Shown: positions 1 to 25,364 of the stretch, in pieces
Numbering within the stretch: position 1 is the first letter of the stretch
Layout of the letters: each line of letters opens with the position of its first letter
NCBI GenBank assembly: GCA_022361195.1
Contig: JAKSBJ010000129.1
Coordinates: forward strand, 1 to 45,198
DNA length: 45,198 nt
Origin: Flavobacteriales bacterium
GTDB lineage: Bacteria > Bacteroidota > Bacteroidia > Flavobacteriales_D > Crocinitomicaceae
Direction: 5' to 3'
Made by a program: the position numbers and the translations under genes
The notes under the pieces: model-generated
The model's database searches: none
What the model saw: only the letters and a program-made list of their open reading frames with translations
Told to the model about the DNA's origin: nothing

Positions 1-218
1 CTGTAATGAGTACGTTTTACCCAATGATGTCCTGCATCGTCTCTGGCATGCTCTGTGTCCCCTTCTTTATATCGATAAACCCTTCCTTCTGCTCCTTCTG
101 GATCTTTAATCAACTGAAAAACCTGATCATCAGATTTTTTTCTTTGAACTACAGCATGAGCCGCAGCCATTTGAGTCACTTCCTCATTATCCTGATATCT
201 GTACTGCGCTGCAACCAT
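1..218 (-). CDS. Hypothetical protein, 5' partial in window (N-terminus MVAAQYRYQDNEEVTQMAAAH...). Its ATG overlaps the TGA of the upstream GH25 gene (ATGA), so the eCIS operon continues past the window start.
   Basis: I translated the minus strand by hand from 218 downward. The frame stays open to position 3 with no stop. The start codon at 218-216 shares bases with the stop codon 220-218 of the preceding gene. This ORF is absent from the supplied ORF track because it has no stop in the window. Confidence 0.4.
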   Translation of the reverse strand, partial: MVAAQYRYQDNEEVTQMAAAHAVVQRKKSDDQVFQLIKDPEGAEGRVYRYKEGDTEHARDDAGHHWVKRTHY

Positions 219-1009
219 CAGCTCTTTTTACTTTTTGAAATGAACTTTTTCAACTCGCTCTCATTCCCGTTAAAAACATCCAAGTCGTTCTTCGTATTCC
301 CTAACATATAATGATCACTCATTTGCCAGAAGGTCCAGGTCGTCCAGCCTCCAAAGAGTTCAGGGGTACTATCTGAATAGTCTGCCACCCAAAGCGGATA
401 ATCAGCAAAGGCAGAATCAGTTAAATTGGTTTTACCAAAGGATGAATTGGTATAAATAATGGGAACATAATTGGTTAGTTTTTCTACTTCTTGTATAAAT
501 ACCAAAAGACTATCCATATCCGCCGCAGTACAAGCCGACCCTTTTGATTGGTTTTCAATATCAACGATTGGAGGCAATACTTTATCTCCAAAAGTTTTTA
601 CCTGATTGACGTAAAACTGAGCCTGAGCTATTGGAGAATCCTCACAACGATAAAAATGATAATAGCCTGAATAGTACTTGGATGAATCTAAAAAGACCTT
701 ATTAGAATCAAATTCAGGATCGACGTAGGTTATTCCTTCAGTTGCTTTGCAGATGATGAAACTAAGTGAGTCACTCAATTGGTTCGTTTTTCTGATTTCA
801 TCTCCCTGCCAATGTGAGACATCAATTCCGTAAGCATAAGCCCCGGGATCGCTTGCTACTGTTCCACTTCCCGAACAGTTGGTACAACACCCCAACACAC
901 CACATACTGCTGTTACTGCTTTTTTTTCATAGGCGAGAATGACAGTAGAAAAATGAGCTCCTAATAAAACAAATGGTATAGCTATCAAAATGAGACACTT
1001 GAGTTTCAT
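218..1009 (-). CDS. GH25-family lysozyme (N-acetylmuramidase) with an N-terminal signal peptide and a Cys-rich segment. Last complete gene of the eCIS operon.
   Basis: GH25 motifs are visible in the translation: GIDVSHWQG, IICKATEG, GYYHF and PPIVDIENQ (the DxE catalytic region). The hydrophobic N-terminus MKLKCLILIAIPFVLLGA fits a signal peptide. A 4-nt overlap with the upstream ORF indicates co-transcription. Confidence 0.8.
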   Translation of the reverse strand: MKLKCLILIAIPFVLLGAHFSTVILAYEKKAVTAVCGVLGCCTNCSGSGTVASDPGAYAYGIDVSHWQGDEIRKTNQLSDSLSFIICKATEGITYVDPEFDSNKVFLDSSKYYSGYYHFYRCEDSPIAQAQFYVNQVKTFGDKVLPPIVDIENQSKGSACTAADMDSLLVFIQEVEKLTNYVPIIYTNSSFGKTNLTDSAFADYPLWVADYSDSTPELFGGWTTWTFWQMSDHYMLGNTKNDLDVFNGNESELKKFISKSKKS

Positions 1010-1575
1010 ACTTCAACTTTTAACCATTCAATTAATATCTCCCAACTCTCAATATCTAACTCTACAGGTCCAATCCAATCTTTGTTCTCATAATGAGGCG
1101 CTGAACAGAAGTTGTTGTTCTCTGTTAGATCTTTGATTCGCTCTATTTCTGCTGAGTAATATCTTTTTTCAAATGGAATTCCGCTCAAAGCTTTGATTAA
1201 ATCCTGATTAATAAGGGGAAGTCGCTCAAATGTTGCTCCCAATTCTTCATTCCAACTAAAATCAATTTCTTCATCGTCTTTTCCCAAAAGCATTCTTCTT
1301 AATCGAAGTTGATTGTGAATTTCAATTTTCAGATATTCATCCAATAAGTGCATTAAATCCTGCACCTCTCCTTTATTCCTTAAAATCAGAAAAAGATTTT
1401 TATTGGTCATCAAATAGCCTACAACCCTCATTCCATTTGAATGAATACAGTAGTTTAAGCCTTTTGCCAGCATTAGTTTACATTGCGAATCAAGGAAATA
1501 GTCCTTCCAATCCGTCAACCTCAAGGTTAGAGGTTGAAGATTATCAGGAATTTTATTTGATTCAAAAACTTCCAT
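1006..1575 (-). CDS. Hypothetical soluble protein, 189 aa, with no transmembrane segment and no recognisable motif. It sits between the eCIS ATPase and the lysozyme.
   Basis: This is an ORF-track ORF in the same strand and operon context, with an ATGA overlap onto the GH25 gene. It has no hydrophobic stretch, so it is not a holin. Confidence 0.45.
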   Translation of the reverse strand: MEVFESNKIPDNLQPLTLRLTDWKDYFLDSQCKLMLAKGLNYCIHSNGMRVVGYLMTNKNLFLILRNKGEVQDLMHLLDEYLKIEIHNQLRLRRMLLGKDDEEIDFSWNEELGATFERLPLINQDLIKALSGIPFEKRYYSAEIERIKDLTENNNFCSAPHYENKDWIGPVELDIESWEILIEWLKVEV

Positions 1576-1582
1576 TTAAAAA

Positions 1583-2944
1583 CTAATAATCAGCCTTTTG
1601 AATTGTTTTATTTTCTTTGTTGTACTCACGTTTAATGCCTTCTAAAATATCATCTGATGTCACCTGGCTATTATCTCGCTGAACAGCTTTTAAAGCACAG
1701 AAACGTAGCACATTAATGATTGATCCTCCAGATAGCTCAAAGTCTTCTGCAATACGGTATAAATCCAAGCCTTCTTCCAAGGTACATCCAGCAGAAAAGG
1801 CATTTTGCCAAAGTAGAAGCCGCTCTTCGACAGAAGGAATCGGGAAATTGATCATTGCTTGAAAACGTCGGGTAAAAGCCTCGTCCATATTAGCTTTAAG
1901 GTTAGAAGCCAAAATGATTACTCCTGGATAATCCTCTATCCTTTGTAGTAAGAAGGACGTTTGTTGATTAGCATGGCGATCGTTGGAATTATTAGCAGCA
2001 GTACGTTTTCCAAACAAGGCATCCGCCTCATCAAAAAACAGTATCCAGTCTTTGTACTGCGCAATGTCAAAAATACGAGCCAAATTCTTCTCTGTTTCTC
2101 CAATATATTTAGAGACAATCATTGATAAGTCAACCCGATACACTTCTCTTCCAGAAGCCTTCCCCAATAGCGTTGCAGTTAAGGTTTTACCCGTTCCGGG
2201 AGGGCCATAAAACAAGGCCCTGTAGCCTGGTTTTATCATTTTATCCAACCCCCAATCATTCATGATTAGAGAAGAATGATCCAGCCAAACCGAAATCTCT
2301 TCCAACTGATTCATTACCACATCTGAAAGCACTACATCTTCCCACTCCATTTTAGTTGTAATCAGTTGAGCAGGAAAATTGGCACTGTGTTGAATTTTAG
2401 GTTGTTCTCCAGTAATAAAATACTGCATCCATGAATCACTAATACTTAAAATTCCATTTAAAGATGGAATGTGATCATCTGTATCACCCAACAAGAGAAT
2501 TCGTTCTTTTATTAAAATGCTATTTCGTCCTAGCACCCTATTTACTTCCAGTCTGAATTCAACATCAATAGTAGCAATGAGAAAGCAATAAGTTTGCCCA
2601 GTAGGTAAAAAACCACTGAAGTTTTTATCTACTACTCCACCAAATTCGGTAAAACCACGATCGTAAAGTTGATTTCGACCAAAGAAGATATCCAATACCT
2701 CGGGTTTTAAATGAGGCGAAATGGCCAAAATAAGTGCCAGACGATCAAAAACATTTAATTCGTGTTCTTGTACAAAATTGGCATAAGGACAATCTATTTC
2801 ACTTAAATCCGGAACCGGAATATCCATCCAGTGTTTTTCGTGCCCTTCTTGTAATAAATAGGAACGAATTACCTGATCAATAACTGCTTGTAACCAATCA
2901 ATCTCAGTATATAAAGTTGATATGGCTACATTTTTATCTTCCAT
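1583..2944 (-). CDS. eCIS-type AAA+ ATPase (Afp15/Pvc15-like, single AAA domain).
   Basis: Walker A is LFYGPPGTGKTL and Walker B is ILFFDEADALF. Downstream of these sit a sensor-1 region and an arginine finger region (SNLKANMDEAFTRRF). A roughly 230-aa N-terminal non-AAA domain is present, as in Afp15-family ATPases. Its position after the tape measure and accessory genes also fits. Confidence 0.85.
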   Translation of the reverse strand: MEDKNVAISTLYTEIDWLQAVIDQVIRSYLLQEGHEKHWMDIPVPDLSEIDCPYANFVQEHELNVFDRLALILAISPHLKPEVLDIFFGRNQLYDRGFTEFGGVVDKNFSGFLPTGQTYCFLIATIDVEFRLEVNRVLGRNSILIKERILLLGDTDDHIPSLNGILSISDSWMQYFITGEQPKIQHSANFPAQLITTKMEWEDVVLSDVVMNQLEEISVWLDHSSLIMNDWGLDKMIKPGYRALFYGPPGTGKTLTATLLGKASGREVYRVDLSMIVSKYIGETEKNLARIFDIAQYKDWILFFDEADALFGKRTAANNSNDRHANQQTSFLLQRIEDYPGVIILASNLKANMDEAFTRRFQAMINFPIPSVEERLLLWQNAFSAGCTLEEGLDLYRIAEDFELSGGSIINVLRFCALKAVQRDNSQVTSDDILEGIKREYNKENKTIQKADY

Positions 2945-3854
2945 TTGAATTAAAGAGTCGGCTTATATCGTCCAGATCAAAATCGGCCCATTTGAAATAC
3001 AATAAAGCTGTATTTGGATTGAGTTCATTGGCTTGTAACATATCGAGCAGACTCCCCTGAACATTGTTGGATACCTGTGGAGAATAATTCACCATGTCAT
3101 ACTCAAAATTGTAATCGTAAAATTCACTGGCCCATTCGTACACACCCTTTCGACGATTGATTAAATCACTGATAAAGTGGTCAAGTTTATCGTTTTTTAC
3201 TTTGAGCTTTTTAGCCTTAAAAAAGTGCGGTTTTCTTTTCACCTCGCGGTGGTAATATTCTATTTCTTTGGATTGAACTGTTCGTGAGGTTTCATGTCCA
3301 AAGAGATCCACCAACCCGTGATTTTCGGTATTAGTGGCAATTTCAAGCTCTCCTTCTTCCGATCCGCAAATGGCTAATGTCCAATTTGAAGTAACCGCTG
3401 TTTCAGTTACCACATAAACATCCCTGAAGGAGAAGTTAGTTTGAGTTAATTTGATGATTAGCTCATCAGCAATAATGTTCCAATTATTGATTCTGACTGA
3501 TTCAGGATTTGTTCCTTTAAAAAAGAAGCTTCCATATCCATCAAAAGCCAATACCTGTCGACTATATTCAAATTGTCCATCAATTAAATTCTCTCCTACT
3601 CCCCTTCCTGAATAAGGTTTGGTAACTCCTTGATGAAAAGACCAATTAGCTGCATGAAGAAGGTTTGCTGAACTAATATCGCAATTCTCCGGACTCACCA
3701 ACTTATTCATGTAGATGTTTCCCAAAAGGGTTATTTCTCCATTGTTGATTTGAAAAAAATCACCCGGGTGAACATAATGCCCCAAAGGAATTGTTGGAAC
3801 GAATCCTGTGCGATTATAGCAGGATTGATAATAATTTTGAAATACTTTTTCCAT
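2934..3854 (-). CDS. Hypothetical protein, 306 aa (eCIS accessory, cargo or fibre candidate). No HExxH motif and no known motif recognised.
   Basis: ORF-track ORF whose start overlaps the ATPase gene by 11 nt. A strong hairpin lies immediately upstream. Confidence 0.45.
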   Translation of the reverse strand: MEKVFQNYYQSCYNRTGFVPTIPLGHYVHPGDFFQINNGEITLLGNIYMNKLVSPENCDISSANLLHAANWSFHQGVTKPYSGRGVGENLIDGQFEYSRQVLAFDGYGSFFFKGTNPESVRINNWNIIADELIIKLTQTNFSFRDVYVVTETAVTSNWTLAICGSEEGELEIATNTENHGLVDLFGHETSRTVQSKEIEYYHREVKRKPHFFKAKKLKVKNDKLDHFISDLINRRKGVYEWASEFYDYNFEYDMVNYSPQVSNNVQGSLLDMLQANELNPNTALLYFKWADFDLDDISRLFNSNGR

Positions 3855-3870
3855 AATCGAAAAATTAGTA

Positions 3871-3905
3871 AATCCTCAGCATAAAATTGTTTTACGCTGA
3901 GGATT
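3871..3905 (-). promoter_or_regulatory. Intra-operon stem-loop with 10-bp perfect arms (aatcctcagc / gctgaggatt) and a 15-nt loop, in the 62-bp gap between the 275-aa and 306-aa genes. Possible attenuator or mRNA-processing and stability element.
   Basis: The inverted repeat was read directly from the sequence. On the minus strand it is followed by TACTAATTTTTCG, a weak T-tract. Confidence 0.4.
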
Positions 3906-3916
3906 TTATGGAAATA

Positions 3917-4744
3917 TTACGAAGCCAAAGCCGCCGCATTCGCAGCTGCATATCCAGACTGCAAAGACGTTAGTTTTACCTGAGCCTTTTCAAGGTTAGA
4001 TTGTGCTTCATTTAACTGTTTTGCTGTTAATGTATTAGCATCTTGAGCTTTTTCATAATTCTTCTCAGCTTCCTGATAAGCCTTATGGATTAAGTAAAAC
4101 AAGGATGCCTCCTGATCTTCAGTGGCTTTTCCATCACTATCGGTTCCCGTATAAACCTCCAATAGGTTCACCGCCTGCATAAATTCAAGCGAAGAAATAG
4201 CCTCTGTTTCCTTATTGGATGATTGCGTGGTATAAGTAGACTTTAGAGCGACCAAAGTTGCGGCTACCGCATTATTAGCATCTTGACCGGCTGTTCCCAA
4301 AATGGTGATTAATTCATCAGAAATCAGCGGGTTTTGAGCTTTTCGGCGAATGACTAAATTCGACAACTTCTCAATCATCTCAGCAGAATAAATCAGCTCT
4401 TTAATCATTTGAGTGAGATTCTTTGTCAAATCATCAACCTTAACATCAGTCTCTGACATTTCTTCTAATGCAATTTCAGAACTGTTTTTAAGATCTGTTA
4501 GGTTCTTTAGAACATCCTGAGCTAAATCCCAATTGCTGAGAGCAGTAGCTCTTTTTGCATCAGCTGTTTGTAACAAAGCCGTGAATTTATTCGACTTTTC
4601 GGTTAAGGAAGTAACCATTGCTTCAAATTGTTGAACCGTATATTCAGCATTTCTTACCTCTTCTTCTAAAAGATCTAATTCAGCTTTTTTTCGTTCAGTA
4701 ACCCCGTATCTTTTTTGTGGGGCATTTATTGTGATATTGTTCAT
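3917..4744 (-). CDS. Hypothetical coiled-coil protein, 275 aa, rich in Ala/Ser/Thr/Gln with a heptad-like periodicity. eCIS accessory or cargo candidate.
   Basis: Sequence composition (for example LEEEVRNAEYTVQQFEAMVTSLTEK and LNEAQSNLEKAQVKLTSLQ). It lies inside the operon 25 nt downstream of the 854-aa gene. Confidence 0.45.
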   Translation of the reverse strand: MNNITINAPQKRYGVTERKKAELDLLEEEVRNAEYTVQQFEAMVTSLTEKSNKFTALLQTADAKRATALSNWDLAQDVLKNLTDLKNSSEIALEEMSETDVKVDDLTKNLTQMIKELIYSAEMIEKLSNLVIRRKAQNPLISDELITILGTAGQDANNAVAATLVALKSTYTTQSSNKETEAISSLEFMQAVNLLEVYTGTDSDGKATEDQEASLFYLIHKAYQEAEKNYEKAQDANTLTAKQLNEAQSNLEKAQVKLTSLQSGYAAANAAALAS

Positions 4745-4768
4745 TTTATTTTCTTTTTAAGTTAATTA

Positions 4769-7333: not shown

Positions 7334-7399
7334 AACTTTCGGTTTATTAAATTATTATTCAACTATTTAAAAATCATTTATTTATTAAAACTTATTTAA

Positions 7400-18010: not shown

Positions 18011-18015
18011 GTAAT

Positions 18016-18444: not shown

Positions 18445-18736
18445 CTATTTCAACATTAAATGCACCTAAAACTATTTCTCCTCCGTGGGCAGTAGTATCA
18501 CCCACCCTAGCTGCCGGCATTCCACCAATCATAACTGTAGCCGATCCTTTCACAATGGCATCTGGTGGTCCAACACAAATCAACTCATCGCCTACTCTGG
18601 CGGCTGGTAATCCGCCAATTAAAACAGTAGGTTCACCGGGACCAACAACGGGTCCTCCAACATGTGGAATTGGAACCGGAGCTGGAGTTTCCATCGGACA
18701 TTCATGAAAATCTGTTAATCGTGCTGCTGGAGGCAT
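18437..18736 (-). CDS. PAAR-repeat spike-tip protein, 99 aa, with no toxin extension.
   Basis: Three PAAR-like motifs are present: PPAARLTD, LPAARVGD and MPAARVGD. Confidence 0.85.
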   Translation of the reverse strand: MPPAARLTDFHECPMETPAPVPIPHVGGPVVGPGEPTVLIGGLPAARVGDELICVGPPDAIVKGSATVMIGGMPAARVGDTTAHGGEIVLGAFNVEIGG

Positions 18737-18747
18737 ACTTTTGGTTT

Positions 18748-20547
18748 TTAGTTAATCATTACCATGGCTCCTTTCAAGGTCAATTCCATTCCTGCATTGA
18801 CTTGAGCCGTTTCACTTCCTTCGGCCGAATATTGCATATCAGCCGTTTCTTTTATATTCATTCCACTGATCTCTACATCTCCTCCTGAGGCTTCTACTGT
18901 CACTCCTTGTGTTCCTTTGATGGAGACTTTTTGATCAGCTTCTATATTGATATCTTTTTCACTTTTTATAGTGATTCCACTTTCGGACATCACAATGCTG
19001 TTGTTGTTTTGATCCTGAATGGTGATTTGCTTGTCTTCATCACTCAAAATCATGGTGTTTTTAGATGGAGTTTCTATTGTAAACACCTTATTTTCATCGT
19101 CGAACTTTACTTGAATTCCGGATTTGGAAACAATAGCTTTTATGGAATTTTGTTCATTCGGATCCAATCCATCAAAAGGCTTGATATTATCACTGCTATA
19201 AAGACTTCCGAGAATAACCGGATAACGAGGATCTTCACTTAAAAAGCCCAATACAACTTCATCTCCCACTTCAGGCAAAAAGAAAGCTCCTGCTCCGGAA
19301 GTAGAATAGAAATTGGCCAAACGAGCCCAAATTCCTTCACCATTTTGGTCAAAAAGCGGAACATCCACTAAAATTCGGTACTGACTGTCCGGATCTTCAT
19401 ACATCTGCTTCACCGTTCCATTAAAAAGTCCTCTCGCCCCTGGTAATAAGCCTGCTGCTGGTGGAGCCATTACATCCGGTTCTTCTGAAAACCAAATGGA
19501 CGACATTCCTACTGTTGTTTCGGTCAACCAATTTCCTTCACTAAAATCGTGTCGAACTCCTGAAACATAATGGTCGCCATTAAAACGATCTCCCAAGCCT
19601 TGAAGGGTAACATAGGTCCCTGGATTGACTAAATTGGTCCCTTGTGTTACTGCGGTTCCAATGATTTTGGAATATTCACTCTTAATCATTTGAGCTTTGG
19701 ACCAATTGGTTAAGTCATCTGACGTTTGATAAGCTGAAGTTTGTAAGTCAAATTCAGACAATCCAACAACCTCGGATAAAGTCTTTGAAGATAAGTTTCC
19801 TGCTCCAGCTACATCGTTTGATGCTTCTCCCGAAATAATGGCTTGTGTTTTATAGTCCCAGGCTTGTGCTTTAACACTTCCTAACTGACTTACGGAATTT
19901 AAATCTCCTCTGAATTCATGTAGATTATCTCCATACTTAATAGTCAAAACTGATGAACTATTGGCATCTGGAGCCTCTACACTTACCTTTCCATCCAAGA
20001 CATTAACAATTAAGCCATTTGCTTCTGATCGCGTCAAAATAAAATCCCAATCGGTAGCATAATACTGTACCTGTTCAGGCCATTCAGTAGTTGTCGCTGT
20101 CACATCAGCGCTCAAATCTGAATAGTTCCCAATAATGGTGCTCATGATATCACTATCCTTTTGTTTGGAATACGTGAGACTTTTACGCCCCACTACCATT
20201 TTGATAGCAGCATCACGGCATTCAATCTCTAAAGCTGATCCTATCATGGGATCAACTCTTAAACTTTGTCTGGTGATTATCCCTTTAAAAATTTGTTCAT
20301 TTTTTGTGTCATAACCGGCTTCAATAACTACTTCAGCTCCTGGCACAAAGGTTTCGGAAGAACTGGCTTCAAATGTTTCCGTACTCGCATCACCATCCAA
20401 AACAACAATTTTAGCCTCTGGAATTCTATTCGTTGAGCGTTCTATTGTAATCGAATAAATGCGTGATTCGTCCGGAATGGCGCTTCCTCCAACTTTTACA
20501 GTATAGGTGGCTATTCCGCCAGTTGTTATGTTATCTGACGCTGCCAT
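18748..20547 (-). CDS. VgrG-like spike (gp27/gp5-like, Afp8-like), 599 aa, with a C-terminal beta-helix and no effector extension.
   Basis: The N-terminal gp27-like region reads YTVKVGG...ITIERSTNRIPEAKIVVLDGD. The C-terminal tract carries repetitive V/I-x-V/I-x beta-helix repeats (ITIQDQNNNSIVMSESGITIKSEKDINIEADQKVSIKGTQGVTVEASGGDVEISG). Confidence 0.75.
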   Translation of the reverse strand: MAASDNITTGGIATYTVKVGGSAIPDESRIYSITIERSTNRIPEAKIVVLDGDASTETFEASSSETFVPGAEVVIEAGYDTKNEQIFKGIITRQSLRVDPMIGSALEIECRDAAIKMVVGRKSLTYSKQKDSDIMSTIIGNYSDLSADVTATTTEWPEQVQYYATDWDFILTRSEANGLIVNVLDGKVSVEAPDANSSSVLTIKYGDNLHEFRGDLNSVSQLGSVKAQAWDYKTQAIISGEASNDVAGAGNLSSKTLSEVVGLSEFDLQTSAYQTSDDLTNWSKAQMIKSEYSKIIGTAVTQGTNLVNPGTYVTLQGLGDRFNGDHYVSGVRHDFSEGNWLTETTVGMSSIWFSEEPDVMAPPAAGLLPGARGLFNGTVKQMYEDPDSQYRILVDVPLFDQNGEGIWARLANFYSTSGAGAFFLPEVGDEVVLGFLSEDPRYPVILGSLYSSDNIKPFDGLDPNEQNSIKAIVSKSGIQVKFDDENKVFTIETPSKNTMILSDEDKQITIQDQNNNSIVMSESGITIKSEKDINIEADQKVSIKGTQGVTVEASGGDVEISGMNIKETADMQYSAEGSETAQVNAGMELTLKGAMVMIN

Positions 20548-21224
20548 TAATTTGGTTGAACAATTGGTGGAAAAATCAATTTAGTTCCTCCCATAAGGTG
20601 GCGGAACTTATTTAGGCCGTTGTATTTTGCTACCTGGATATAATAGGAATCATCATTCCAAATTTTTTGGCACAATTGAGGAAGAGTATCACCATCCACT
20701 ACATCCACCAAGTGACTCACATCTGGAGATTCCTGCCCATCTACTTTTTTAACCGTTGATGGCGATAGGTATTGACTAAAACTTAAGGATACTTTAGCTC
20801 TTAAAGGACTTCCATCAGGCTTAAAGAGCGTATAACTGGTGTCAAAAGAGGTTAATACACCTTTAAAGGTGATGTTTTTACCCCATTGAATTTTGACGAA
20901 GTTTGGACGGTGAATTTTTCCATTATAGGTAAAAACGATATTCTCAAGAGCCGTTATTTCCTTGTACATGACCGTTCGTTTGGAGTCTACTACTCCGGTA
21001 CAGTCAATAACAATATCAAAAGACAATTTATCGCTGGGAGTACTCTTGTACTTTTGAGAAGCAGAACTGGAATCGGGAGATTGTTGCTCATTGTATTCAA
21101 TGGCTCGAGTCCATTTAATGGATTCGGGGTTAATCATTACCGTGTAAGGATCACCACTAAAGGCCGATGAGAATTCCTCATCAGTATATCCCGTAATTTT
21201 CATCAATTCTAAACTCGATCCCAT
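20547..21224 (-). CDS. LysM-domain tube-initiator / baseplate hub protein (Afp7-like), 225 aa.
   Basis: The C-terminal LysM reads VDGDTLPQLCQKIWNDDSYYIQVAKYNGLNKFRHLMGGTKLIFP. It lies between the tube genes and the spike, as in Afp/PVC. Confidence 0.75.
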   Translation of the reverse strand: MGSSLELMKITGYTDEEFSSAFSGDPYTVMINPESIKWTRAIEYNEQQSPDSSSASQKYKSTPSDKLSFDIVIDCTGVVDSKRTVMYKEITALENIVFTYNGKIHRPNFVKIQWGKNITFKGVLTSFDTSYTLFKPDGSPLRAKVSLSFSQYLSPSTVKKVDGQESPDVSHLVDVVDGDTLPQLCQKIWNDDSYYIQVAKYNGLNKFRHLMGGTKLIFPPIVQPN

Positions 21225-21228
21225 TCTT

Positions 21229-21399
21229 TTATCTCTTGTGTTTTTTTCGATTCATATTTTGTGAAATCAACTTTCGGCATTCATTCACAATTTGAGTTTT
21301 TAATTGTCCCAGTTCTTTTTCAGATACTGTTCCTTCGCCATTGGACATAGAAGTCCTAACCTCCGTTCGGATGGTGATTTCTTTTATTTCTACAGGCAT
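21229..21399 (-). CDS. Small 56-aa ORF (MPVEIKEITIRTEVRTSMSNGEGTVSEKELGQLKTQIVNECRKLISQNMNRKKHKR), a positional equivalent of Afp6/Pvc6. Not in the ORF track.
   Basis: I translated it by hand. The ATG is at 21399-21397 and the TAA at 21231-21229. It fills the otherwise empty 185-nt gap between the tube and LysM genes. Afp/PVC loci carry a small ORF at this position. Confidence 0.4.
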   Translation of the reverse strand: MPVEIKEITIRTEVRTSMSNGEGTVSEKELGQLKTQIVNECRKLISQNMNRKKHKR

Positions 21400-21409
21400 A
21401 CTTTTAGCG

Positions 21410-21874
21410 TTAGTTGAATAGTTTGGACCACTTCTTTTGAGGCCCTACTTCAAAATAGGTGTAAGCCAGTTCAATGGTTTCAATCAATACACTGTTTTCT
21501 GTCGACTTAAAATCGGACAAAGCGTATTTAATTGGATAGGCATTGTGAAAAGTCCAGCTTCTGGATGGAGTTCCCTTTGCGTTGAGCAAAGAGACAGTTA
21601 CATCGTGTGGCTGAACGGCCTTTGCCAATCCCTGATCCATGGTTGTTGAACACCATCCCAATAATTGAGAGCCCTTGGTAACCACAGCTCGCTTCAGTAC
21701 TAAATTTTGACCTGAAGCAATGGTGGGAAGACGGTATTTAAAGCGATTCTCCCCACCACAGGTAACTTCTTCAACTGCCAGTTCCTTTGACAAGCCGGAC
21801 ACTTCTTGAAAAGCAGCATCCTCACCTTTAAAAGAAAGCTTGAAATAAAAGCTAACTGGATAATTAAGAGCCAT
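21410..21874 (-). CDS. Tail tube protein (gp19/Hcp-like, Afp5-like), 154 aa.
   Basis: Motifs YPVSFYFKLSF and AAFQEVSGLS are present. The size matches a tube protein. Confidence 0.8.
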   Translation of the reverse strand: MALNYPVSFYFKLSFKGEDAAFQEVSGLSKELAVEEVTCGGENRFKYRLPTIASGQNLVLKRAVVTKGSQLLGWCSTTMDQGLAKAVQPHDVTVSLLNAKGTPSRSWTFHNAYPIKYALSDFKSTENSVLIETIELAYTYFEVGPQKKWSKLFN

Positions 21875-22328
21875 TTGTTATGGTCAGTTTCTCATGAGCA
21901 ACTTCCAATGTATCTACAGCCACCTCATTTCCGTCCGACTTAAGATCAGTACTGGTAATTTTAGTTGGCCAGGCATTGTCCAATTGCCATTGCATGGTTA
22001 CTTTTCCACTTTCGTCCAATAATTTTATCAAAACAGTTCGTCGTTTGATCGTATTCATGGAAATTTCCTTGTGCCAGTTCCAAAAGGTATTGTCATTGAC
22101 AAAAACACCTCTTTTCATGGTAATGTTTCCATACTTTACTATTCCGGGCATTTTTTCTGTAGAAAATTCAGGACTATTACTTTTTCTGTACTCAATAATC
22201 TGATTTTCAACATCCATACCGGATACTTCTTGAAAAGCTACACCTTTCATTTCGGTTCCAAGATCTACTTCAAATCGGAACTTCGGCATGGGCCAGGTTG
22301 CGCCTTCTTTACTTCCGTCATCTGCCAT
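21864..22328 (-). CDS. Tail tube protein (gp19/Hcp-like, Afp1-like), 154 aa.
   Basis: Motifs PKFRFEVDLG and VAFQEVSGMD are present. It is a paralogue of the adjacent tube gene. Confidence 0.8.
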   Translation of the reverse strand: MADDGSKEGATWPMPKFRFEVDLGTEMKGVAFQEVSGMDVENQIIEYRKSNSPEFSTEKMPGIVKYGNITMKRGVFVNDNTFWNWHKEISMNTIKRRTVLIKLLDESGKVTMQWQLDNAWPTKITSTDLKSDGNEVAVDTLEVAHEKLTITNGS

Positions 22329-22371
22329 AATGGTATATTTTAATGGTTTTTATTCGTGATTAAATTTTTGA

Positions 22372-23943
22372 TTAAGATGATTTTGCCATTTGCTGTTCAA
22401 ACTCAAGAACAATAAATTCAGCCGGATGGACAACTGCTACTTTCACCGCTACTTTCATGAATCCGTTGAGAATATCATCAGAGGTCATCGTAGTCCCTAA
22501 TCCACATTGAACTGAAAAAGCATCAGCAGCAGTTGCACCTTGTAATCCACCTTCTTTCCAAATAGAAGTCAGGAAACTTGAAATCATAGACTTCACTCCT
22601 TCCCATGTATTTTTATCATTTGGCTCAAATACATAAGCATGAGCGGCTAGTTTACAGGATTGTTCTAAGAAGGTCATCGTTCGTCTAACCGGAAGGTATT
22701 TCCAGTCTAAACTATTACCGTCTAGTGTTCTTGCACCCCAAACCAAAATTCCTAATCCGTTAAAGAATCGAATGGCATTAATTGACTTTCCAGAAACAGC
22801 ATCTATATTCAAATCAGCCTGCTGACTTTCTGATAATCGAATTGGTAAACTTACCGTTCCAACAATACTCGTATTAGCCGGTGCATACCAAACTCCTTCT
22901 TGATTATCAGTAGTTGTAATAACTCCAGCCATACCTCCACTGGGAGGAAGAATATTGGCATCAGATAAAACATGCTTCACCATTTGGGAATACGTTTTAC
23001 TTGCATTAATCAATGCATTTTGTCCCTGAGTGGTAGACAATTCACCACTTTCAATTTTAGAGAAAATAGTTGCAACGCTTTGATTTGGATTATCAGCCGG
23101 ATTCAATAATGGCTCCAATTGTTTTAAATCTCCCCCAAATAAATTGGTAAAATCAATGTCACTATTTTGCATGATTGTAGTACCAATAAAAGGGTAATAA
23201 GCTGTTCCATAATTCAGACCATTGGCACCTGTACTATTTCGGAACGTCTCAATATCATTTGTATATAAAATTGGGTCTGGATCACGTCCTCCAATGATGT
23301 CAAAAATGCTGACCGCCGTTTGCATCTCTGTGCACTGTAAAAGCATTTCCTGCATCAAGGTTGCGTTATTATCAACCGACATTAAAGTTGCTTCAGGACA
23401 GATGTACATCGTTGGTTCTTGCTCGTTTTTGAGTAAAGCCAAACCGTTCATCAAATCATTCAATTGTACATTCGGATTCACAATTTGATCACCCGGAGTC
23501 ATTGGATTTTTAGAAGGATCTCCGTACGTTCCAACCGATACAATATAAGCATCTCCTCCTCCATTTTCATAAAACAGCTTAATACTGTTATAGAGATAGT
23601 AGATGGTATTAGGATCTGGAACAATCGAATAAAAATCACCATCAATTAGCATATAATCGCCTTTTTCTGGTTTACTCTTTTGTTTCACGAAATAATACTC
23701 CGGATTGTACTGTTTTGCAGGAGGTGCCGGAGGTGATGGATTCGGATAACAGAAGATTGCCTGAAACTCAGCAAAAGAGGTAATCTTTTGCGGTACATTA
23801 GTGTATGACTTTCCTTCATACATTGCCTGAGGGGTATATCCGATAAAGGCCGGAACCGCTGTGGCTACGGGAACCACTGAATTCGGAAAAGCATTTATCT
23901 CGTCGATATAAACACCCGGAGATTTAATGGTTGATAAATTCAT
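22372..23943 (-). CDS. Contractile sheath protein (single sheath gene), 523 aa.
   Basis: The N-terminus reads KSPGVYIDEINAFPNSVVPVATAVPAFIGYT. The C-terminal domain carries ILVWGARTLDG. Both are typical sheath-family signatures. Confidence 0.85.
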   Translation of the reverse strand: MNLSTIKSPGVYIDEINAFPNSVVPVATAVPAFIGYTPQAMYEGKSYTNVPQKITSFAEFQAIFCYPNPSPPAPPAKQYNPEYYFVKQKSKPEKGDYMLIDGDFYSIVPDPNTIYYLYNSIKLFYENGGGDAYIVSVGTYGDPSKNPMTPGDQIVNPNVQLNDLMNGLALLKNEQEPTMYICPEATLMSVDNNATLMQEMLLQCTEMQTAVSIFDIIGGRDPDPILYTNDIETFRNSTGANGLNYGTAYYPFIGTTIMQNSDIDFTNLFGGDLKQLEPLLNPADNPNQSVATIFSKIESGELSTTQGQNALINASKTYSQMVKHVLSDANILPPSGGMAGVITTTDNQEGVWYAPANTSIVGTVSLPIRLSESQQADLNIDAVSGKSINAIRFFNGLGILVWGARTLDGNSLDWKYLPVRRTMTFLEQSCKLAAHAYVFEPNDKNTWEGVKSMISSFLTSIWKEGGLQGATAADAFSVQCGLGTTMTSDDILNGFMKVAVKVAVVHPAEFIVLEFEQQMAKSS

Positions 23944-23973
23944 ATTTTGTTTCTGTTTATTTAGTTATTGTAT

Positions 23974-24792
23974 TTATACATAGACATACATTGGAGAAGC
24001 CAAATCACCATTGTTAGAGGCATTCTTTATCTCCAAGTTCATGGGGTCAGGATTTGGTAATGCCTGAAAAATTGTTTTCTGAATTTTTCGAGAAGCAGTC
24101 AATCTGCCTGTCCCACTTTGATTATTGACCAATTTAAACTTGTATTTGGGACGATAACTCAAAGGAATGAGGGTTAAGCCCGAACTGAATAATAAAGCTG
24201 TTTGTTTGTTGGGTAATATTACCTCTTCTGGTCCTTCAAATAAAACCTCTTCTGAACCAGTAATTTCTGGCTCAGAAAGGTCTAAAGAACTCTGATTAAT
24301 AATGTAATAGTTCCATTGCGTTTTACGAGCAGTAAAGGAAAGATCAAATATCTCCGTGCTTAAAATGTCTTTAAAATAAAGACGAATTATAGCCAACTTT
24401 GTATATTCTCCCTGTTCAAATCTCCCCTTCCCTAAATCAATTTGGCCTTCATCAACTTTAGTTCCTTCATTGCTATTAAAAACAAGACGCCCCAGTTCAT
24501 TTACCGGAACGTCAGTATATTGATAAAAGCTATTTTCTTCAGTTACTAACTCAAATACAAAGGCATTTTCACCAGTAATTTTTTCGACATATTGAAACCG
24601 ATCCTTTAGATCGCCCGAGTTTTGTGTATATAATCTAATGATATTATCTCTAAAGTATGTAACAGTGAATCCATATTTAGAAACCCATTGCTCAGTAGCT
24701 GCAGACAGCTTTAATTGAATGGGATAAGTCATCTCCAAATCAAAATAACTGTGGCTTATTTTCACCTCTGATATTTTTGTATAGCTAATCAT
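23974..24792 (-). CDS. Hypothetical protein, 272 aa, between the cap-like and sheath genes. eCIS-associated, function unknown.
   Basis: ORF-track ORF with a 4-nt overlap onto the upstream gene. No motif recognised. Confidence 0.45.
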   Translation of the reverse strand: MISYTKISEVKISHSYFDLEMTYPIQLKLSAATEQWVSKYGFTVTYFRDNIIRLYTQNSGDLKDRFQYVEKITGENAFVFELVTEENSFYQYTDVPVNELGRLVFNSNEGTKVDEGQIDLGKGRFEQGEYTKLAIIRLYFKDILSTEIFDLSFTARKTQWNYYIINQSSLDLSEPEITGSEEVLFEGPEEVILPNKQTALLFSSGLTLIPLSYRPKYKFKLVNNQSGTGRLTASRKIQKTIFQALPNPDPMNLEIKNASNNGDLASPMYVYV

Positions 24793-25364
24793 TGATTTGG
24801 TAAAACTGGATTGGATTGGTTGGTAACCGGAGCGACAAAACCTTGTGTATTTTCTGACTCAATAGTGATTAATCTCATCTTATAAATCACAGAAGGAACA
24901 TATTTCGCTCCCATTGCACTCCAAAGGTTATGCATCTCGAAATAACTGATTTTCTCTACTTCAAATTCAAGGCGATCAATTCCCTCGGGAAGATTTGAGT
25001 ACGAAGAAGAATTAACCACTGGATTTATCTGGAAAAACTGAATTCCCGAATTGAGAAACTTGAGTGTTTCTGTATAATCATCAAAACTTGAAGACACTAA
25101 TAGGTCTATATTATACCTTTCGGGCCGTCTTACATTTGAGAAGCTTCCATCCGACAAGCGTTGGTTACGTACATAAAACTGGCGATTAGTTTCCTGAGCA
25201 ATATTGATCATAGAAATGACCAACTTATTTTGATTTGGCTTGGGAACCGAACCATCGGCTTCAATAAGGTTATTGATCAACACTTTTGATTCGTTCAAAC
25301 CAAATTGATTACGTACAAACTGATCCAATGAATTGGCAGTAAACTGTAGCACTGTGTCGATCAT
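24789..25364 (-). CDS. DUF4255-like protein, candidate tube/sheath terminator cap (Afp16/Pvc16-like N-domain), 191 aa. First gene of the operon.
   Basis: It has the size and N-terminal pattern (MIDTVLQFTANSLDQFV...) of cap-family proteins that often open eCIS loci. The assignment is tentative. It is preceded by a 206-bp promoter region. Confidence 0.45.
   Translation of the reverse strand: MIDTVLQFTANSLDQFVRNQFGLNESKVLINNLIEADGSVPKPNQNKLVISMINIAQETNRQFYVRNQRLSDGSFSNVRRPERYNIDLLVSSSFDDYTETLKFLNSGIQFFQINPVVNSSSYSNLPEGIDRLEFEVEKISYFEMHNLWSAMGAKYVPSVIYKMRLITIESENTQGFVAPVTNQSNPVLPNQ

What the first reader, a model, noticed from the sequence alone, without database searches (positions are those of the whole stretch)
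1..25364. Complete phage-tail-like extracellular contractile injection system (eCIS) operon, about 25 kb, with non-canonical content
Twenty-one co-directional, mostly overlapping genes encode every hallmark part of a contractile injection machine. No capsid, portal, terminase or integrase is present.

The hallmark parts, identified from motifs readable in the translations, are:
- a sheath with PGVYIDE near the N-terminus and VWGARTL near the C-terminus;
- two tube proteins with FRFEV / FQEVSG;
- a LysM tube initiator;
- a VgrG-like spike with a beta-helix;
- a PAAR protein with three PAAR motifs;
- a gp25-like wedge with GWAFP;
- two giant baseplate proteins;
- a 1382-aa helical protein that I read as a tape measure;
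- an AAA+ ATPase with GPPGTGKT and FFDEAD.

The single-AAA ATPase, the LysM initiator and the tape measure distinguish this from a T6SS (which has ClpV and TssB/C) and from a prophage. It is an Afp/PVC/MAC-type particle, which such bacteria release to inject protein cargo into eukaryotic or bacterial targets.

Unusual points:
- a single sheath gene;
- the cap-like DUF4255 gene at the 5' end of the operon;
- an unknown 272-aa gene between the cap-like and sheath genes;
- three unknown proteins between the tape measure and the ATPase;
- a lysozyme gene at the 3' end;
- the operon runs off the window start.
Basis: partly seen in the sequence, partly recalled or inferred. Interest (0 to 1): 0.85.

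Follow-up and report, generated by a model that had tools for sequence, protein, structure and literature searches.

The report
Subtype-Ib contractile injection system gene cluster
This is a phage-tail-like protein-injecting machine of an already described type (the AlgoCIS/SalCIS group) in an uncultured Flavobacteriales bacterium; it is real but ordinary, cut off at the contig end before its toxin genes, and contains three conserved genes whose role is still unknown.

Summary
Window 1-25364 (minus strand) carries 19 intact co-directional genes plus one truncated gene. Profile searches identify every hallmark part of a contractile injection system (CIS). No phage head, portal, terminase or integrase gene is present.

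The cluster fits eCIS subtype Ib, the group of AlgoCIS and SalCIS.
- a single sheath gene;
- the cap gene first in the operon;
- a long Afp11 homologue;
- the "unknown 272-aa gene", which is the cap adaptor Cis16B (sequence profile and fold).

The operon is not complete in the window. A 99.6%-identical metagenome contig continues it with five more genes. Three are DUF4157 cargo proteins, and a convergent helicase gene follows. A conserved LuxR-type regulator gene (25571-26497) also belongs to the cluster. The GH25 lysozyme gene is therefore internal.

The three genes between tape measure and ATPase form a module conserved in over 30 loci of Bacteroidota and Gammaproteobacteria. They match no known family, and their function is unresolved. 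One distant homologue of the 306-aa protein is fused to a caspase domain.

Verdict: new member of a known kind, of modest interest.

The parts
25571..26497 (-). 308-aa regulator gene with a weak C-terminal LuxR/GerE-type HTH. It lies directly upstream of the operon and is co-directional with it.
   Evidence: Pfam GerE hit is below threshold (E 0.0075). The protein is 42% identical (1e-76) to the gene directly upstream of cis16A in L070, whose other neighbours differ. Geller et al. report GerE-domain regulators next to eCIS operons.
24789..25364 (-). Cis16A cap / tube terminator, 191 aa
   Evidence: Pfam Pvc16_N 5.3e-24. Its length is like Alg16A (197 aa). It is the first gene of the operon, as in SalCIS and in L070/L071.
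23974..24792 (-).
   Evidence: A family profile hits SalCis16b (9r9n_C, 1.4e-9, full length), tCIS All3326 (1.1e-4) and the AlgoCIS cap adaptor (7adz_1A, 3e-4). The AF2 model has pLDDT 86. Its top Foldseek PDB hits are 7adz_1A (2.8e-9) and 7b5i_AB (2.3e-7).
22372..23943 (-). Cis2 sheath, 523 aa; the only sheath gene
   Evidence: Pfam Phage_sheath_1C. PDB matches: SalCis2 2e-112, Alg2 2e-83, tCIS All3325 8e-78, Afp/Pvc sheaths about 1e-31 to 1e-50.
21864..22328 (-). Cis1 inner tube protein, 154 aa
   Evidence: Pfam Phage_T4_gp19 1.2e-42.
21410..21874 (-). Second tube-fold protein, 154 aa. Called Cis5-like by its position in the operon.
   Evidence: Pfam Phage_T4_gp19 2e-37. The Cis5 role is inferred from gene order and from AlgoCIS, where Alg5/Alg7 form the tube initiator.
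21229..21399 (-).
   Evidence: Pfam DUF5908 6.2e-12. Same size and position as Afp6/Alg6. Alg6 is the plug in the spike cavity.
20547..21224 (-). Cis7 tube initiator with C-terminal LysM-type domain, 225 aa
   Evidence: Pfam CIS_tube 1.7e-48. Full-length alignment to SalCis7 (1.1e-48) and to Alg7, 'LysM domain-containing protein' (2.5e-48).
18748..20547 (-). Cis8 VgrG-like spike, 599 aa
   Evidence: Pfam Phage_base_V 1.8e-18 and Phage_GPD 1.4e-8, plus a DUF2345 hit below threshold.
18437..18736 (-). Cis10 PAAR tip protein, 99 aa
   Evidence: Pfam PAAR_motif 2.3e-24. Three PAAR motifs are visible in the translation.
18016..18444 (-). Cis9 gp25-like sheath initiator / wedge protein, 142 aa
   Evidence: Pfam GPW_gp25 5.6e-19.
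14222..18010 (-). Cis11 baseplate wedge (gp6-like) with a long N-terminal/central extension, 1262 aa; probable spike cage
   Evidence: Pfam Baseplate_J 8e-5. PDB matches: Alg11 5.8e-45 (query residues 261-610 aligned to Alg11 107-488), tCIS All3317 1.5e-44, SalCis11 2.2e-36, Pvc11 1.7e-24. Afp11 is notably longer in subtype Ib. Alg11 extensions form the cage.
11541..14225 (-). Cis12 baseplate wedge (gp6/gp7-like), 894 aa
   Evidence: No Pfam hit. PDB matches: Alg12 1.4e-50, tCIS All3315 2.3e-40, SalCis12 2.5e-21, Pvc12 and Afp12.
7400..11548 (-). Cis14 tape measure protein, 1382 aa
   Evidence: Pfam CIS_TMP 4.7e-95 over residues 918-1380. Alg14 acts as a ruler at 0.229 nm per residue.
4769..7333 (-). 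u854: conserved protein of unknown function. Four regions in order: a helical N-terminal region of about 250 aa, a conserved middle region with no predicted fold, a coiled coil of variable length, and a conserved C-terminal block of about 60 aa.
   Evidence: No Pfam, NCBIfam, PHROG or PDB match. BLASTP matches in 35 of the 64 related loci compared, in all the closer relatives at the same position. Alignment. 171 homologues, none with an informative source name; a few carry a precomputed Pfam accession that was not looked up.
3917..4744 (-). u275: conserved all-helical protein of unknown function with a near-invariant Ala-rich C-terminal tail (LQSG.AAANAAALAS-COOH)
   Evidence: No family or PDB match. 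Syntenic homologues. Alignment.
3870..3906 (-). 17-bp stem-loop followed by a U-rich tract, in the gap between u275 and u306
   Evidence: Terminator scan. Folding energy -22.1 kcal/mol, z = -8.0 against shuffles. Hairpins of unrelated sequence, -21 to -26 kcal/mol, sit in the same gap in L005, L061 and L013.
2934..3854 (-). u306: highly conserved protein of unknown function. Its stop overlaps the ATPase start by 11 nt.
   Evidence: No Pfam, NCBIfam, PHROG, PADLOC or PDB match. 429 homologues at 90% clustering and 108 clusters at 50%. One distant member is fused to Peptidase_C14. The AF2 model failed, pLDDT 37.
1583..2944 (-). Cis15 AAA+ ATPase, 453 aa, one AAA module
   Evidence: Pfam AAA 1.4e-26. 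42-73% identical to the ATPases of most of the 65 related loci found. Alg15 is required for cargo loading.
1006..1575 (-). u189: unknown 189-aa protein. Conserved at this position in Bacteroidota relatives only.
   Evidence: No family match. Homologues in 13 related loci.
218..1009 (-). GH25 muramidase, 263 aa, with an N-terminal hydrophobic segment (residues 1-27)
   Evidence: Pfam Glyco_hydro_25 6.6e-37. It carries the only TM-like segment among the 24 cluster proteins. Present at this position in 7 Bacteroidota loci.
1..218 (-). First 72 codons of a 318-aa gene, cut by the contig end. The operon continues beyond the window.
   Evidence: Translation is identical to the start of L001 10105-11061. 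L001 is 99.55% identical to window 1-10311.

Best explanation
What it is. The region is the structural and loading part of a subtype-Ib contractile injection system (the AlgoCIS/SalCIS group). It sits in the chromosome of an uncultured Flavobacteriales bacterium, and the contig end cuts it off before its cargo genes.

Shown by homology:
- A baseplate is built from Cis11 and Cis12 wedges and gp25-like Cis9. These surround a VgrG-PAAR spike that carries the small plug Cis6.
- Tube initiators (Cis7 with a LysM domain, and Cis5) start a Cis1 tube. The 1382-aa tape measure sets its length.
- A single sheath protein wraps the tube.
- A two-ring cap closes the assembly: Cis16A plus the cap adaptor Cis16B.

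Inferred from AlgoCIS and PVC experiments:
- The AAA+ ATPase Cis15 unfolds cargo proteins and threads them into the tube lumen. It is taken to recognise them by a disordered N-terminal leader.
- The cargo here is the set of DUF4157 proteins, with variable C-terminal domains, encoded just beyond the window.
- Sheath contraction then drives tube, spike and cargo into a target cell.

Most likely, but not shown:
- Particles act extracellularly after the producer cell lyses. The exported GH25 muramidase encoded in the operon would help that lysis.
- The conserved LuxR-type gene upstream controls expression.
- A conserved hairpin after u275 sets a lower expression level for the loading and cargo genes than for the structural genes.

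Unresolved. The conserved trio u854-u275-u306 is an integral part of this sub-lineage, with no assigned function. My best guess: u854 and u275 are structural or fibre-like accessory proteins, because they are transcribed with the structural genes. u306 would be a partner of the ATPase, because its gene overlaps the ATPase start.
For: Family assignment of 14 of the 19 complete genes in the window comes from Pfam and solved-structure homologues.

Cap adaptor: profile search and predicted fold.

Lineage-I and subtype-Ib markers:
- Afp6, Afp12 and Afp14 homologues are present;
- Afp11 is long, and there is a single sheath gene and a cap adaptor;
- the best structural relatives are SalCIS, AlgoCIS and tCIS, ahead of Afp and PVC.

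Operon continuation with three DUF4157/eCIS_core proteins:
- they share 74-85% identical N-terminal 160 residues and have unrelated C-termini;
- a leader motif of the form h-x-D-N-R recurs in most cargo proteins listed from related loci.

Roles taken from the literature: Alg15, the N-terminal loading sequence and the tape-measure ruler; Cgo1 and Cgo2 as lumen cargo.

Context and regulation:
- No TM-like segment in any of the 24 cluster proteins except the GH25 N-terminus.
- The flanks are chromosomal housekeeping and regulatory genes, with no phage genes.
- The regulator gene is conserved upstream.
- The hairpin is strong and positionally conserved.
- Synteny holds across 30 or more loci.
Against: No Afp13-type or Alg19-type tail fibre was recognised, so target binding is unexplained.

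The closest solved sheath and cap adaptor are those of SalCIS, for which no extracellular release was detected.

GH25 is present in only 7 of the related loci, so it cannot be the general release factor of the lineage.

Nothing here shows expression, assembly or release.

The cargo genes are inferred from a 99.6%-identical contig of another sample, not from the window itself.

The functions proposed for u854, u275 and u306 rest only on gene position and conservation. The structure prediction for u306 failed.
Confidence: 0.78

Rival explanations
1. The machine is a cell-associated CIS (SalCIS-like or T6SS-iv-like). It stays in the cytoplasm, docks its baseplate on the inner membrane and fires outward on contact. 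The periplasmic GH25 enzyme locally remodels peptidoglycan rather than lysing the cell.
For: - The sheath's best solved relative is SalCis2 (2e-112), and the cap adaptor's is SalCis16b.
- SalCIS is placed in clade Ib. Its authors propose inner-membrane tethering through a hydrolase-containing membrane protein and a trimeric fibre-like anchor.
- The operon here also encodes an exported peptidoglycan hydrolase.
- No canonical tail fibre was found.
- u854 is a coiled-coil protein at the position where an anchor or fibre would be expected.
Against: - SalCis19 has three TM helices and a SleL-like (Bacillus cereus cortex-lytic enzyme) fold. The enzyme here is a small GH25 with one N-terminal hydrophobic segment, and it is absent from most related loci.
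- No other membrane protein is encoded in the cluster.
- Cis11 and Cis12 are closer to AlgoCIS, a demonstrated eCIS, than to SalCIS.
- The SalCIS membrane model is itself still a hypothesis.
Confidence: 0.17
2. The region is a prophage tail module or an R-type tailocin (a bacteriocin that kills by depolarising the membrane and carries no cargo).
For: Sheath, tube, gp25, baseplate J and VgrG folds are shared with myophage tails. A lysozyme gene is present, as in phage lysis cassettes.
Against: - CIS-specific families are present: Pvc16_N, CIS_tube, CIS_TMP, DUF5908 and eCIS_core.
- There is an AAA+ ATPase, a cap adaptor and leader-bearing cargo proteins.
- No head, portal, terminase, integrase, holin or tRNA gene was found on either side.
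- The same cluster sits in different chromosomal contexts in relatives.
Confidence: 0.02
3. The machine is a cytoplasmic CIS that kills its own producer under stress (Streptomyces-type) and does not inject other cells.
For: Such a mode exists among CIS relatives (titles and abstracts listed). The operon carries its own muramidase. One homologue of u306 is fused to a caspase-like protease, an architecture typical of cell-death modules.
Against: - There is a PAAR-tipped spike and multiple polymorphic DUF4157 cargo proteins with loading leaders. These are the hallmarks of delivery to another cell.
- The Streptomyces sheath is only a distant relative (8bky, 6.6e-40, against 2e-112 for SalCIS).
- No CisA-like membrane protein is encoded.
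Confidence: 0.03

Closest known systems
AlgoCIS of Algoriphagus machipongonensis (eCIS subtype Ib; PDB 7adz/7aeb; PMC8894135)
   Same: - Single sheath gene.
- Short Cis16A cap (191 aa here, 197 aa in AlgoCIS) plus a cap adaptor.
- Small plug protein.
- LysM-bearing Cis7.
- PAAR-tipped VgrG spike.
- Very long Cis11 that aligns over the Alg11 extension region; Alg11's extensions form the cage.
- Cis12 is the best PDB match of the window's Cis12.
- AAA+ loader and tape measure.
- DUF4157 cargo with a shared N-terminal region and variable C-termini.
   Different: - No Alg19-type Ig-like tail fibre was recognised.
- The sheath lacks the extra Alg2 domains (523 aa against 692 aa).
- The tape measure is long (1382 aa). 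If the AlgoCIS ratio of 0.229 nm per residue applied, this would predict a particle of roughly 300 nm. That figure is my extrapolation.
- The trio u854-u275-u306, u189 and the GH25 gene are not among the AlgoCIS components named in the passages read. The 18-gene list itself (its Supplementary Table 1) could not be checked.
- The cap adaptor is detectable only at profile or fold level (15% identity).
SalCIS of Salmonella enterica subsp. salamae (clade Ib; PDB 9r9h/9r9n/9rce; bioRxiv 10.1101/2025.06.01.657177)
   Same: - Closest solved sheath (519 aa against 523 aa, 2e-112).
- Closest cap adaptor (full-length profile match).
- Closest Cis7.
- Cap gene first in the cluster.
- Single sheath gene.
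- A DUF4157 effector after the ATPase.
- A peptidoglycan hydrolase encoded in the operon.
   Different: - The hydrolase here is a small GH25 with one hydrophobic N-terminal segment. SalCis19 has three TM helices and a SleL-like fold.
- Cis11 and Cis12 are less similar to SalCIS than to AlgoCIS.
- I could not test whether u854 corresponds to SalCis13, because no SalCis13 sequence was available.
Afp of Serratia entomophila and PVC of Photorhabdus (eCIS subtype Ia)
   Same: Core set present: Afp1/5, 2, 6, 7, 8, 9, 10, 11, 12, 14, 15 and 16. Cargo is loaded through an N-terminal signal and an AAA+ ATPase.
   Different: - One sheath gene instead of three.
- The cap is split into a short cap plus an adaptor, and it is encoded first instead of last.
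- No Afp13 adenovirus-like fibre.
- Afp11 homologue about twice as long.
- Cargo of the DUF4157 type.
tCIS of Anabaena PCC 7120 (thylakoid-anchored; PDB 7b5h/7b5i)
   Same: Sheath, Cis7, Cis11, Cis12 and cap adaptor (All3326) are all significant matches.
   Different: tCIS is anchored to thylakoids through baseplate extensions. Neither thylakoids nor TM segments are present here. tCIS belongs to a different subtype: the SalCIS preprint lists it as IIa.

Membership tests
eCIS superfamily (operational definition of Chen 2019 and Geller 2021) | [quoted passage not shown] | tested here: met
   Twelve core types are present: Afp1/5, 2, 6, 7, 8, 9, 10, 11, 12, 14, 15 and 16. The definition was read.
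eCIS superfamily | Not a prophage: no head, portal, terminase or integrase gene in or next to the cluster. | tested here: met
   Pfam was run on the main flanking ORFs of the window and on the continuation in L001. No tRNA was found.
eCIS superfamily | Not a classical T6SS: no TssB/TssC pair, no ClpV, no TssJLM membrane complex; Afp11, Afp14 and Afp16 homologues present. | tested here: met
   There is a single phage-type sheath and a single-AAA ATPase. No T6SS family appears in the Pfam output.
eCIS superfamily | Particles are released from the cell and act extracellularly. | not testable with these tools
   Only indirect hints: no membrane anchor protein and an operon-encoded exported muramidase.
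eCIS superfamily | Tail fibre (Afp13 or an equivalent) for target binding. | tested here: inconclusive
   No fibre family was hit. u854 is a candidate by position and coiled-coil content only. The listed homologues carry no recognised receptor-binding domain and no informative name.
Subtype Ib / AlgoCIS-type CIS | Cap adaptor (Cis16B) in addition to a short cap. | tested here: met
   Profile and fold matches to SalCis16b, All3326 and the AlgoCIS cap adaptor.
Subtype Ib / AlgoCIS-type CIS | Plug protein (Afp6/Alg6 homologue) between the tube genes and Cis7. | tested here: met
   DUF5908 6.2e-12, 56 aa, at 21229-21399. The role of Alg6 was read.
Subtype Ib / AlgoCIS-type CIS | Much enlarged Afp11 homologue that forms a cage round the spike. 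| tested here: inconclusive
   The length (1262 aa) and the alignment over Alg11 residues 107-488 fit. The cage itself was not modelled.
Subtype Ib / AlgoCIS-type CIS | Lineage-I markers Afp6, Afp12 and Afp14 present, and a single contiguous VgrG ORF. | tested here: met
.
Subtype Ib / AlgoCIS-type CIS | Placement in the Ib clade of an Afp8/Afp11 or sheath tree. | not tested
   No reference sequence set was available. Only the ranking of PDB homologues supports it: SalCIS, AlgoCIS and tCIS rank ahead of Afp and PVC.
SalCIS-type membrane-tethered CIS | Operon-encoded integral membrane hydrolase (SalCis19: signal sequence, three TM helices, SleL-like domain). | tested here: not met
   The only hydrophobic segment in the cluster is the GH25 N-terminus. 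The fold family also differs.
SalCIS-type membrane-tethered CIS | [quoted passage not shown] | not testable with these tools
   No SalCis13 sequence or structure was available. Structure-prediction jobs were exhausted.
Bacterial gasdermin (considered for u306 only) | Sequence or fold match to bGSDM, and an adjacent or fused activating protease. | tested here: not met
   - PADLOC models did not hit u306 or its distant relatives.
- The family profile found nothing in the PDB.
- Foldseek on the poor model gave only noise.
- The eCIS operon has no protease gene.
- Only one distant homologue carries a caspase domain.

The most novel reading that the evidence does not exclude
The trio conserved between tape measure and ATPase (u854, u275, u306) may be a new functional module of a large CIS sub-lineage. 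In particular, u306 may be a protease- or ATPase-activated cell-death or pore-forming effector. Its family includes a full-length fusion to a caspase-like peptidase outside any CIS. In that reading u306, together with the exported GH25 muramidase where that is present, opens the producer cell to release the particles. It would be a dedicated lysis device of a kind not described for any CIS.
Probability: 0.1. Interest if true: 0.7.

Novelty: new member of a known kind. Interest (0 to 1): 0.3.

Why it matters
As an instance it adds little. eCIS loci of subtype Ib are already catalogued by the hundred, and two members have atomic structures.

Its value is as a pointer to a sub-lineage with no characterised member found here. 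This sub-lineage spans Flavobacteriia, Sphingobacteriia, Chitinophagia and several Gammaproteobacteria, including Pseudomonas syringae and Dickeya. Its members share three things:
- a very long tape measure;
- no recognisable tail fibre;
- three conserved genes with no Pfam family.

How eCIS particles choose targets and how they leave the producer cell are open questions. These three genes, the GH25 gene and the caspase-fused homologue of u306 are concrete candidates to test. Cultivable relatives exist, among them Kordia algicida OT-1, Dokdonia pacifica and Pedobacter species.

Tried and rejected
- Split of u854 in L001. In L001 the gene appears as 191 + 644 aa. This is an N-run scaffold gap, not biology.
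- u306 structure prediction. Using 32 homologues of 55-70% identity it failed (pLDDT 37). Foldseek on that model gave nothing significant. A bGSDM pore chain at rank 3 has E = 3.1 and probability 0.04, which is noise.
- u306 as a gasdermin. There was no PADLOC hit, no PDB profile hit and no Pfam hit. I could not obtain bGSDM sequences for a profile-profile test.
- u854 and u275 as paralogues. hhalign gave probability 1%.
- u306 against the 212-aa third gene of the Cytophagales variant of the module. No similarity.
- The 283-aa gene next to the caspase fusion as a u306 paralogue. No similarity.
- u854 as a modular tail fibre. None of the listed homologues carries a recognised receptor-binding domain or an informative name. 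The PDB profile hits are coiled-coil noise.
- The trio as leader-bearing cargo. The h-x-D-N-R leader motif of the DUF4157 proteins is absent from u854, u275, u306, u189 and the 318-aa protein.
- u189 as a degenerate IS200/RayT-like protein. This was an impression from the sequence; Pfam gives no support.
- Toxin domains in the cargo C-termini. None was found at E <= 5.
- Plasmid collection. There is no u306 homologue. Sheath homologues are at most 41% identical.
- Sigma-70 promoter and terminator scans. Counts did not exceed shuffled sequence, apart from the single strong hairpin. Bacteroidota promoters are not covered by that tool.
- Rfam and tRNA scans were empty.
- AlgoCIS supplementary files. 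They did not hold the locus-tag table that would have given its exact gene order.

Full report
**Origin and layout**

The window is one whole 45,198-bp contig of an NCBI metagenome-assembled genome labelled 'Flavobacteriales bacterium'. Proteins identical to the 272-aa and 854-aa products carry locus tags MI810_07410 and MI810_07350, on a longest contig of exactly 45,198 bp.

All genes of the finding lie on the minus strand, from 25364 down to position 1. There are 19 complete ORFs, separated by -11 to +66 nt. The first 72 codons of a twentieth gene run off the contig end. GC content is 35-40% across both cluster and flank.

**Check of the observation**

Pfam confirms the parts.

| Part | Pfam family | E-value |
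|---|---|---|
| cap | Pvc16_N | 5e-24 |
| sheath | Phage_sheath_1C | 4e-11 |
| two tube proteins | Phage_T4_gp19 | 1e-42, 2e-37 |
| tube initiator | CIS_tube | 2e-48 |
| spike | Phage_base_V / Phage_GPD | 2e-18 / 1e-8 |
| spike tip | PAAR_motif | 2e-24 |
| wedge | GPW_gp25 | 6e-19 |
| 1262-aa baseplate protein | Baseplate_J | 8e-5 |
| 1382-aa tape measure | CIS_TMP | 5e-95 |
| ATPase | AAA | 1e-26 |
| lysozyme | Glyco_hydro_25 | 7e-37 |

- The 894-aa baseplate protein has no Pfam hit. It matches AlgoCIS Alg12 (1.4e-50), tCIS All3315, SalCis12, Pvc12 and Afp12.
It is DUF5908 (6e-12), the Afp6/Alg6 'plug'.
- The LysM call is right, although Pfam's LysM model does not fire. The protein aligns end to end with Alg7 ('LysM domain-containing protein', 2.5e-48) and with SalCis7.
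- The Pfam-scanned main ORFs in 25.5-45.2 kb are a LuxR-like gene, LytTR response regulators, a TPR histidine kinase, mnmE, sucD, GNAT acetyltransferases, a flotillin-like protein, a T9SS-sorted protein and several with no hit. None is a phage gene. There is no tRNA or Rfam match.

**The 272-aa 'unknown' is the cap adaptor**

It has 33 homologues of 30-38% identity, all unnamed.

- A profile of 24 of them hits SalCis16b (1.4e-9, full length), Anabaena All3326 (1.1e-4) and the AlgoCIS cap adaptor 7adz_1A (3e-4).
- An AlphaFold2 model is confident, with pLDDT 86. Its only significant PDB fold matches are 7adz_1A (2.8e-9) and 7b5i_AB (2.3e-7).
- In AlgoCIS this protein links the short cap to the last sheath layer and is needed for correct assembly. 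The same holds in SalCIS.

**Which kind of CIS**

The nearest solved homologues are consistently SalCIS, AlgoCIS and tCIS, ahead of Afp and PVC.

| Component | Best PDB matches |
|---|---|
| sheath | SalCis2 2e-112, Alg2 2e-83, tCIS 8e-78, Afp/Pvc about 1e-31 to 1e-50 |
| Cis11 | Alg11 6e-45, tCIS 1.5e-44, SalCis11 2e-36, Pvc11 2e-24 |
| Cis12 | Alg12 best |
| Cis7 | SalCis7 and Alg7 about equal |

Lineage-I markers (Afp6, Afp12, Afp14) are present. The Afp11 homologue is long, as described for subtype Ib.

SalCis16a is 'the first gene' of its cluster and SalCis2 is 'the sole sheath component'. Two close relatives (L070, L071) have the same order from the regulator gene to Cis11.

**The operon is not complete in the window**

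Four public contigs encode the identical GH25 protein. The longest, L001, is 99.55% identical to window 1-10311 and extends 8.8 kb further. After the GH25 gene come five more co-directional genes:

- 318 aa, no family;
- 393 aa, eCIS_core/DUF4157, 4e-12;
- 547 aa, no family;
- 529 aa, eCIS_core, 9e-11;
- 970 aa, eCIS_core, 8e-11.

A convergent helicase gene (AAA_12) follows.

The three DUF4157 proteins share 74-85% identical N-terminal 160 residues and have unrelated C-termini. That is the architecture of AlgoCIS Cgo1/Cgo2 and of eCIS-associated toxins in general.

A short leader motif (hydrophobic-x-D-N-R) lies 25-45 residues from the N-terminus in most of the 45 cargo proteins listed from related loci. 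A loose pattern matched 32 of the 45, and the motif is visible by eye in most of the rest. It also occurs in the 547-aa protein, which lacks DUF4157.

The whole cluster is therefore about 35 kb with about 25 genes, and the lysozyme gene is internal.

At the other end, the 308-aa gene at 25571-26497 belongs to the cluster. It has a weak GerE/LuxR HTH hit. It is 42% identical to the gene directly upstream of cis16A in L070, whose other neighbours are ribosomal-protein genes. GerE-type regulators next to eCIS operons are already on record.

**The three genes between tape measure and ATPase**

A genome scan with the ATPase returned 65 loci. I called ORFs in them and compared them with BLASTP. The order Cis12 - tape measure - u854 - u275 - u306 - ATPase - DUF4157 cargo is kept in about 30 loci. 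These include:

- Flavobacteriia: a Crocinitomicaceae MAG, the closest relative (ATPase 73%, u306 65%, u275 62%, u854 50% identity), plus Kordia, Dokdonia, Flavobacterium, Psychroserpens and Aquimarina;
- Sphingobacteriia and Chitinophagia: Pedobacter, Mucilaginibacter and a Chitinophagaceae MAG;
- Gammaproteobacteria: Pseudomonas syringae, Rheinheimera and Methylobacter.

Variants also exist:
- Dickeya, Kosakonia, Phytobacter and Vibrio have u854 and a longer u275 but no u306.
- Two Cytophagales MAGs carry a diverged u854/u275 pair after the ATPase.
- u189 occurs in 13 related loci and GH25 in 7, all from Bacteroidota.

None of the three proteins matches Pfam, NCBIfam, PHROGs, PADLOC or any PDB sequence, singly or as profiles. 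None has a TM-like segment or the cargo leader motif.

What the alignments show:
- u854 has a conserved helical N-terminal region of about 250 aa, a conserved middle region, a coiled coil whose length varies by hundreds of residues, and a conserved C-terminal block of about 60 residues (T-D-N-F-G-N-P-L).
- u275 is all-helical, with a near-invariant Ala-rich C-terminal tail.
- u306 is as conserved as the ATPase, at 55-65% identity across Bacteroidota. Its stop overlaps the ATPase start by 11 nt.

**The hairpin between u275 and u306**

A 17-bp hairpin with a U-tract sits in the gap between u275 and u306. Its folding energy is -22.1 kcal/mol, z = -8 against shuffles. Hairpins of unrelated sequence but similar strength occupy the same gap in three relatives.

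I read this as an internal attenuator or processing site. It would separate a highly expressed structural half (cis16A to u275) from a loading and cargo half (u306 onward). This is inference.

**An unexpected lead on u306**

An exhaustive profile search found only 108 clusters at 50% identity. One of them, P0255 (578 aa), is a full u306-like module followed by a Peptidase_C14 caspase domain (8e-30). It sits in a genome context without CIS genes.

That architecture recalls protease-activated death effectors such as gasdermins. The tests I could run were negative or void:
- no PADLOC gasdermin hit;
- no PDB profile hit;
- a failed structure prediction, pLDDT 37;
- only noise from Foldseek.

I keep it as a low-probability lead.

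**How it most likely works**

Shown by homology: the parts list of a contractile particle with cap, cap adaptor, sheath, tube, plug, initiators, spike, PAAR tip, wedges and tape measure.

Inferred from AlgoCIS and PVC experiments:
[quoted passage not shown] The tape measure sets tube length.
- With 1382 residues, and if the AlgoCIS ratio of 0.229 nm per residue applied, the particle would be roughly 300 nm long. This is my extrapolation.

Most likely but not shown: the particle is released by lysis of the producer and acts extracellularly.
- For: the cluster encodes no membrane anchor. It encodes an exported muramidase. Its baseplate proteins are closest to those of AlgoCIS, a demonstrated eCIS.
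- Against: no tail fibre was recognised, and the sheath and cap adaptor are closest to those of SalCIS, which its authors think is membrane-tethered.

I put about two thirds on the extracellular mode within the CIS explanation.

**Comparison and novelty**

This is a member of the eCIS superfamily by the published operational definitions, and it fits subtype Ib (see the membership table). It differs from AlgoCIS in four ways:
- a shorter sheath protein;
- a much longer tape measure;
- no Alg19-type fibre;
- the u854-u275-u306, u189 and GH25 genes.

It differs from SalCIS in lacking the three-TM hydrolase. It is a new member of a known kind.

The only aspect of wider interest is the conserved, unnamed three-gene module. 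In the papers searched, no experimental study of any member of this sub-lineage turned up.

**Limits**

- The cargo genes are read from a near-identical contig of another sample, not from the window.
- No tree was built.
- Nothing here bears on expression or activity.

Noticed in passing
window 33637-35010 (minus strand); stop codon at 34369-34371: mnmE (tRNA modification GTPase) is one continuous reading frame broken by a single in-frame TGA just before the G-domain P-loop. It therefore appears as two ORFs of 213 and 193 aa. TGA is a genuine stop in 6 of 20 cluster genes, so recoding is unlikely. It is either an assembly error or a pseudogene.
   Followed up: partly
window 3870-3906 (minus strand), gap between u275 and u306: A 17-bp stem-loop plus U-tract, -22.1 kcal/mol, z = -8.0. 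Hairpins of different sequence sit in the same intergenic gap in L005, L061 and L013. This suggests a conserved internal attenuator or RNA-processing site inside the operon.
   Followed up: partly
L072 6001-7737 (GCA_000429305.1, AUBP01000002.1); protein P0255: A distant homologue of the 306-aa protein is fused to a C-terminal caspase (Peptidase_C14) domain. It lies outside any CIS cluster, next to a transposase fragment and a 283-aa unknown gene.
   Followed up: partly
L001 10105-18450 (continuation beyond the window start): Five further operon genes. Three are DUF4157 proteins with 74-85% identical N-terminal 160 residues and unrelated C-termini that match no toxin family. A 547-aa protein without DUF4157 carries the same h-x-D-N-R leader motif. 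No immunity-like genes are evident.
   Followed up: partly
window 3917-4744 (u275) and homologues in L005-L061: The protein family ends in a near-invariant Ala-rich tail (...LQSGLAAANAAALAS...AAYAA...AVAA). To my eye it resembles the C-terminal part of the ssrA degradation tag. It might be a handle for the neighbouring AAA+ ATPase. This is untested.
   Followed up: no
window 1006-1575 (u189): A 189-aa protein of unknown function sits between the ATPase and the GH25/cargo genes. It is conserved at that position in 13 related loci, Bacteroidota only, and matches no family.
   Followed up: no
window 26780-32678: Divergent from the regulator gene are three plus-strand ORFs (133, 411 and 243 aa) with no family. 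After them come two LytTR response-regulator genes and a TPR-LytS-type histidine kinase gene. They are not found next to the related cluster in L070, so they are probably unrelated to the CIS.
   Followed up: partly
L001 about 3560-3620 and 18555-19124: The public contig L001 contains N-run scaffold gaps. These split the u854 gene artificially into 191 + 644 aa and put X residues into the helicase. Automated gene calls on that contig are misleading there.
   Followed up: yes
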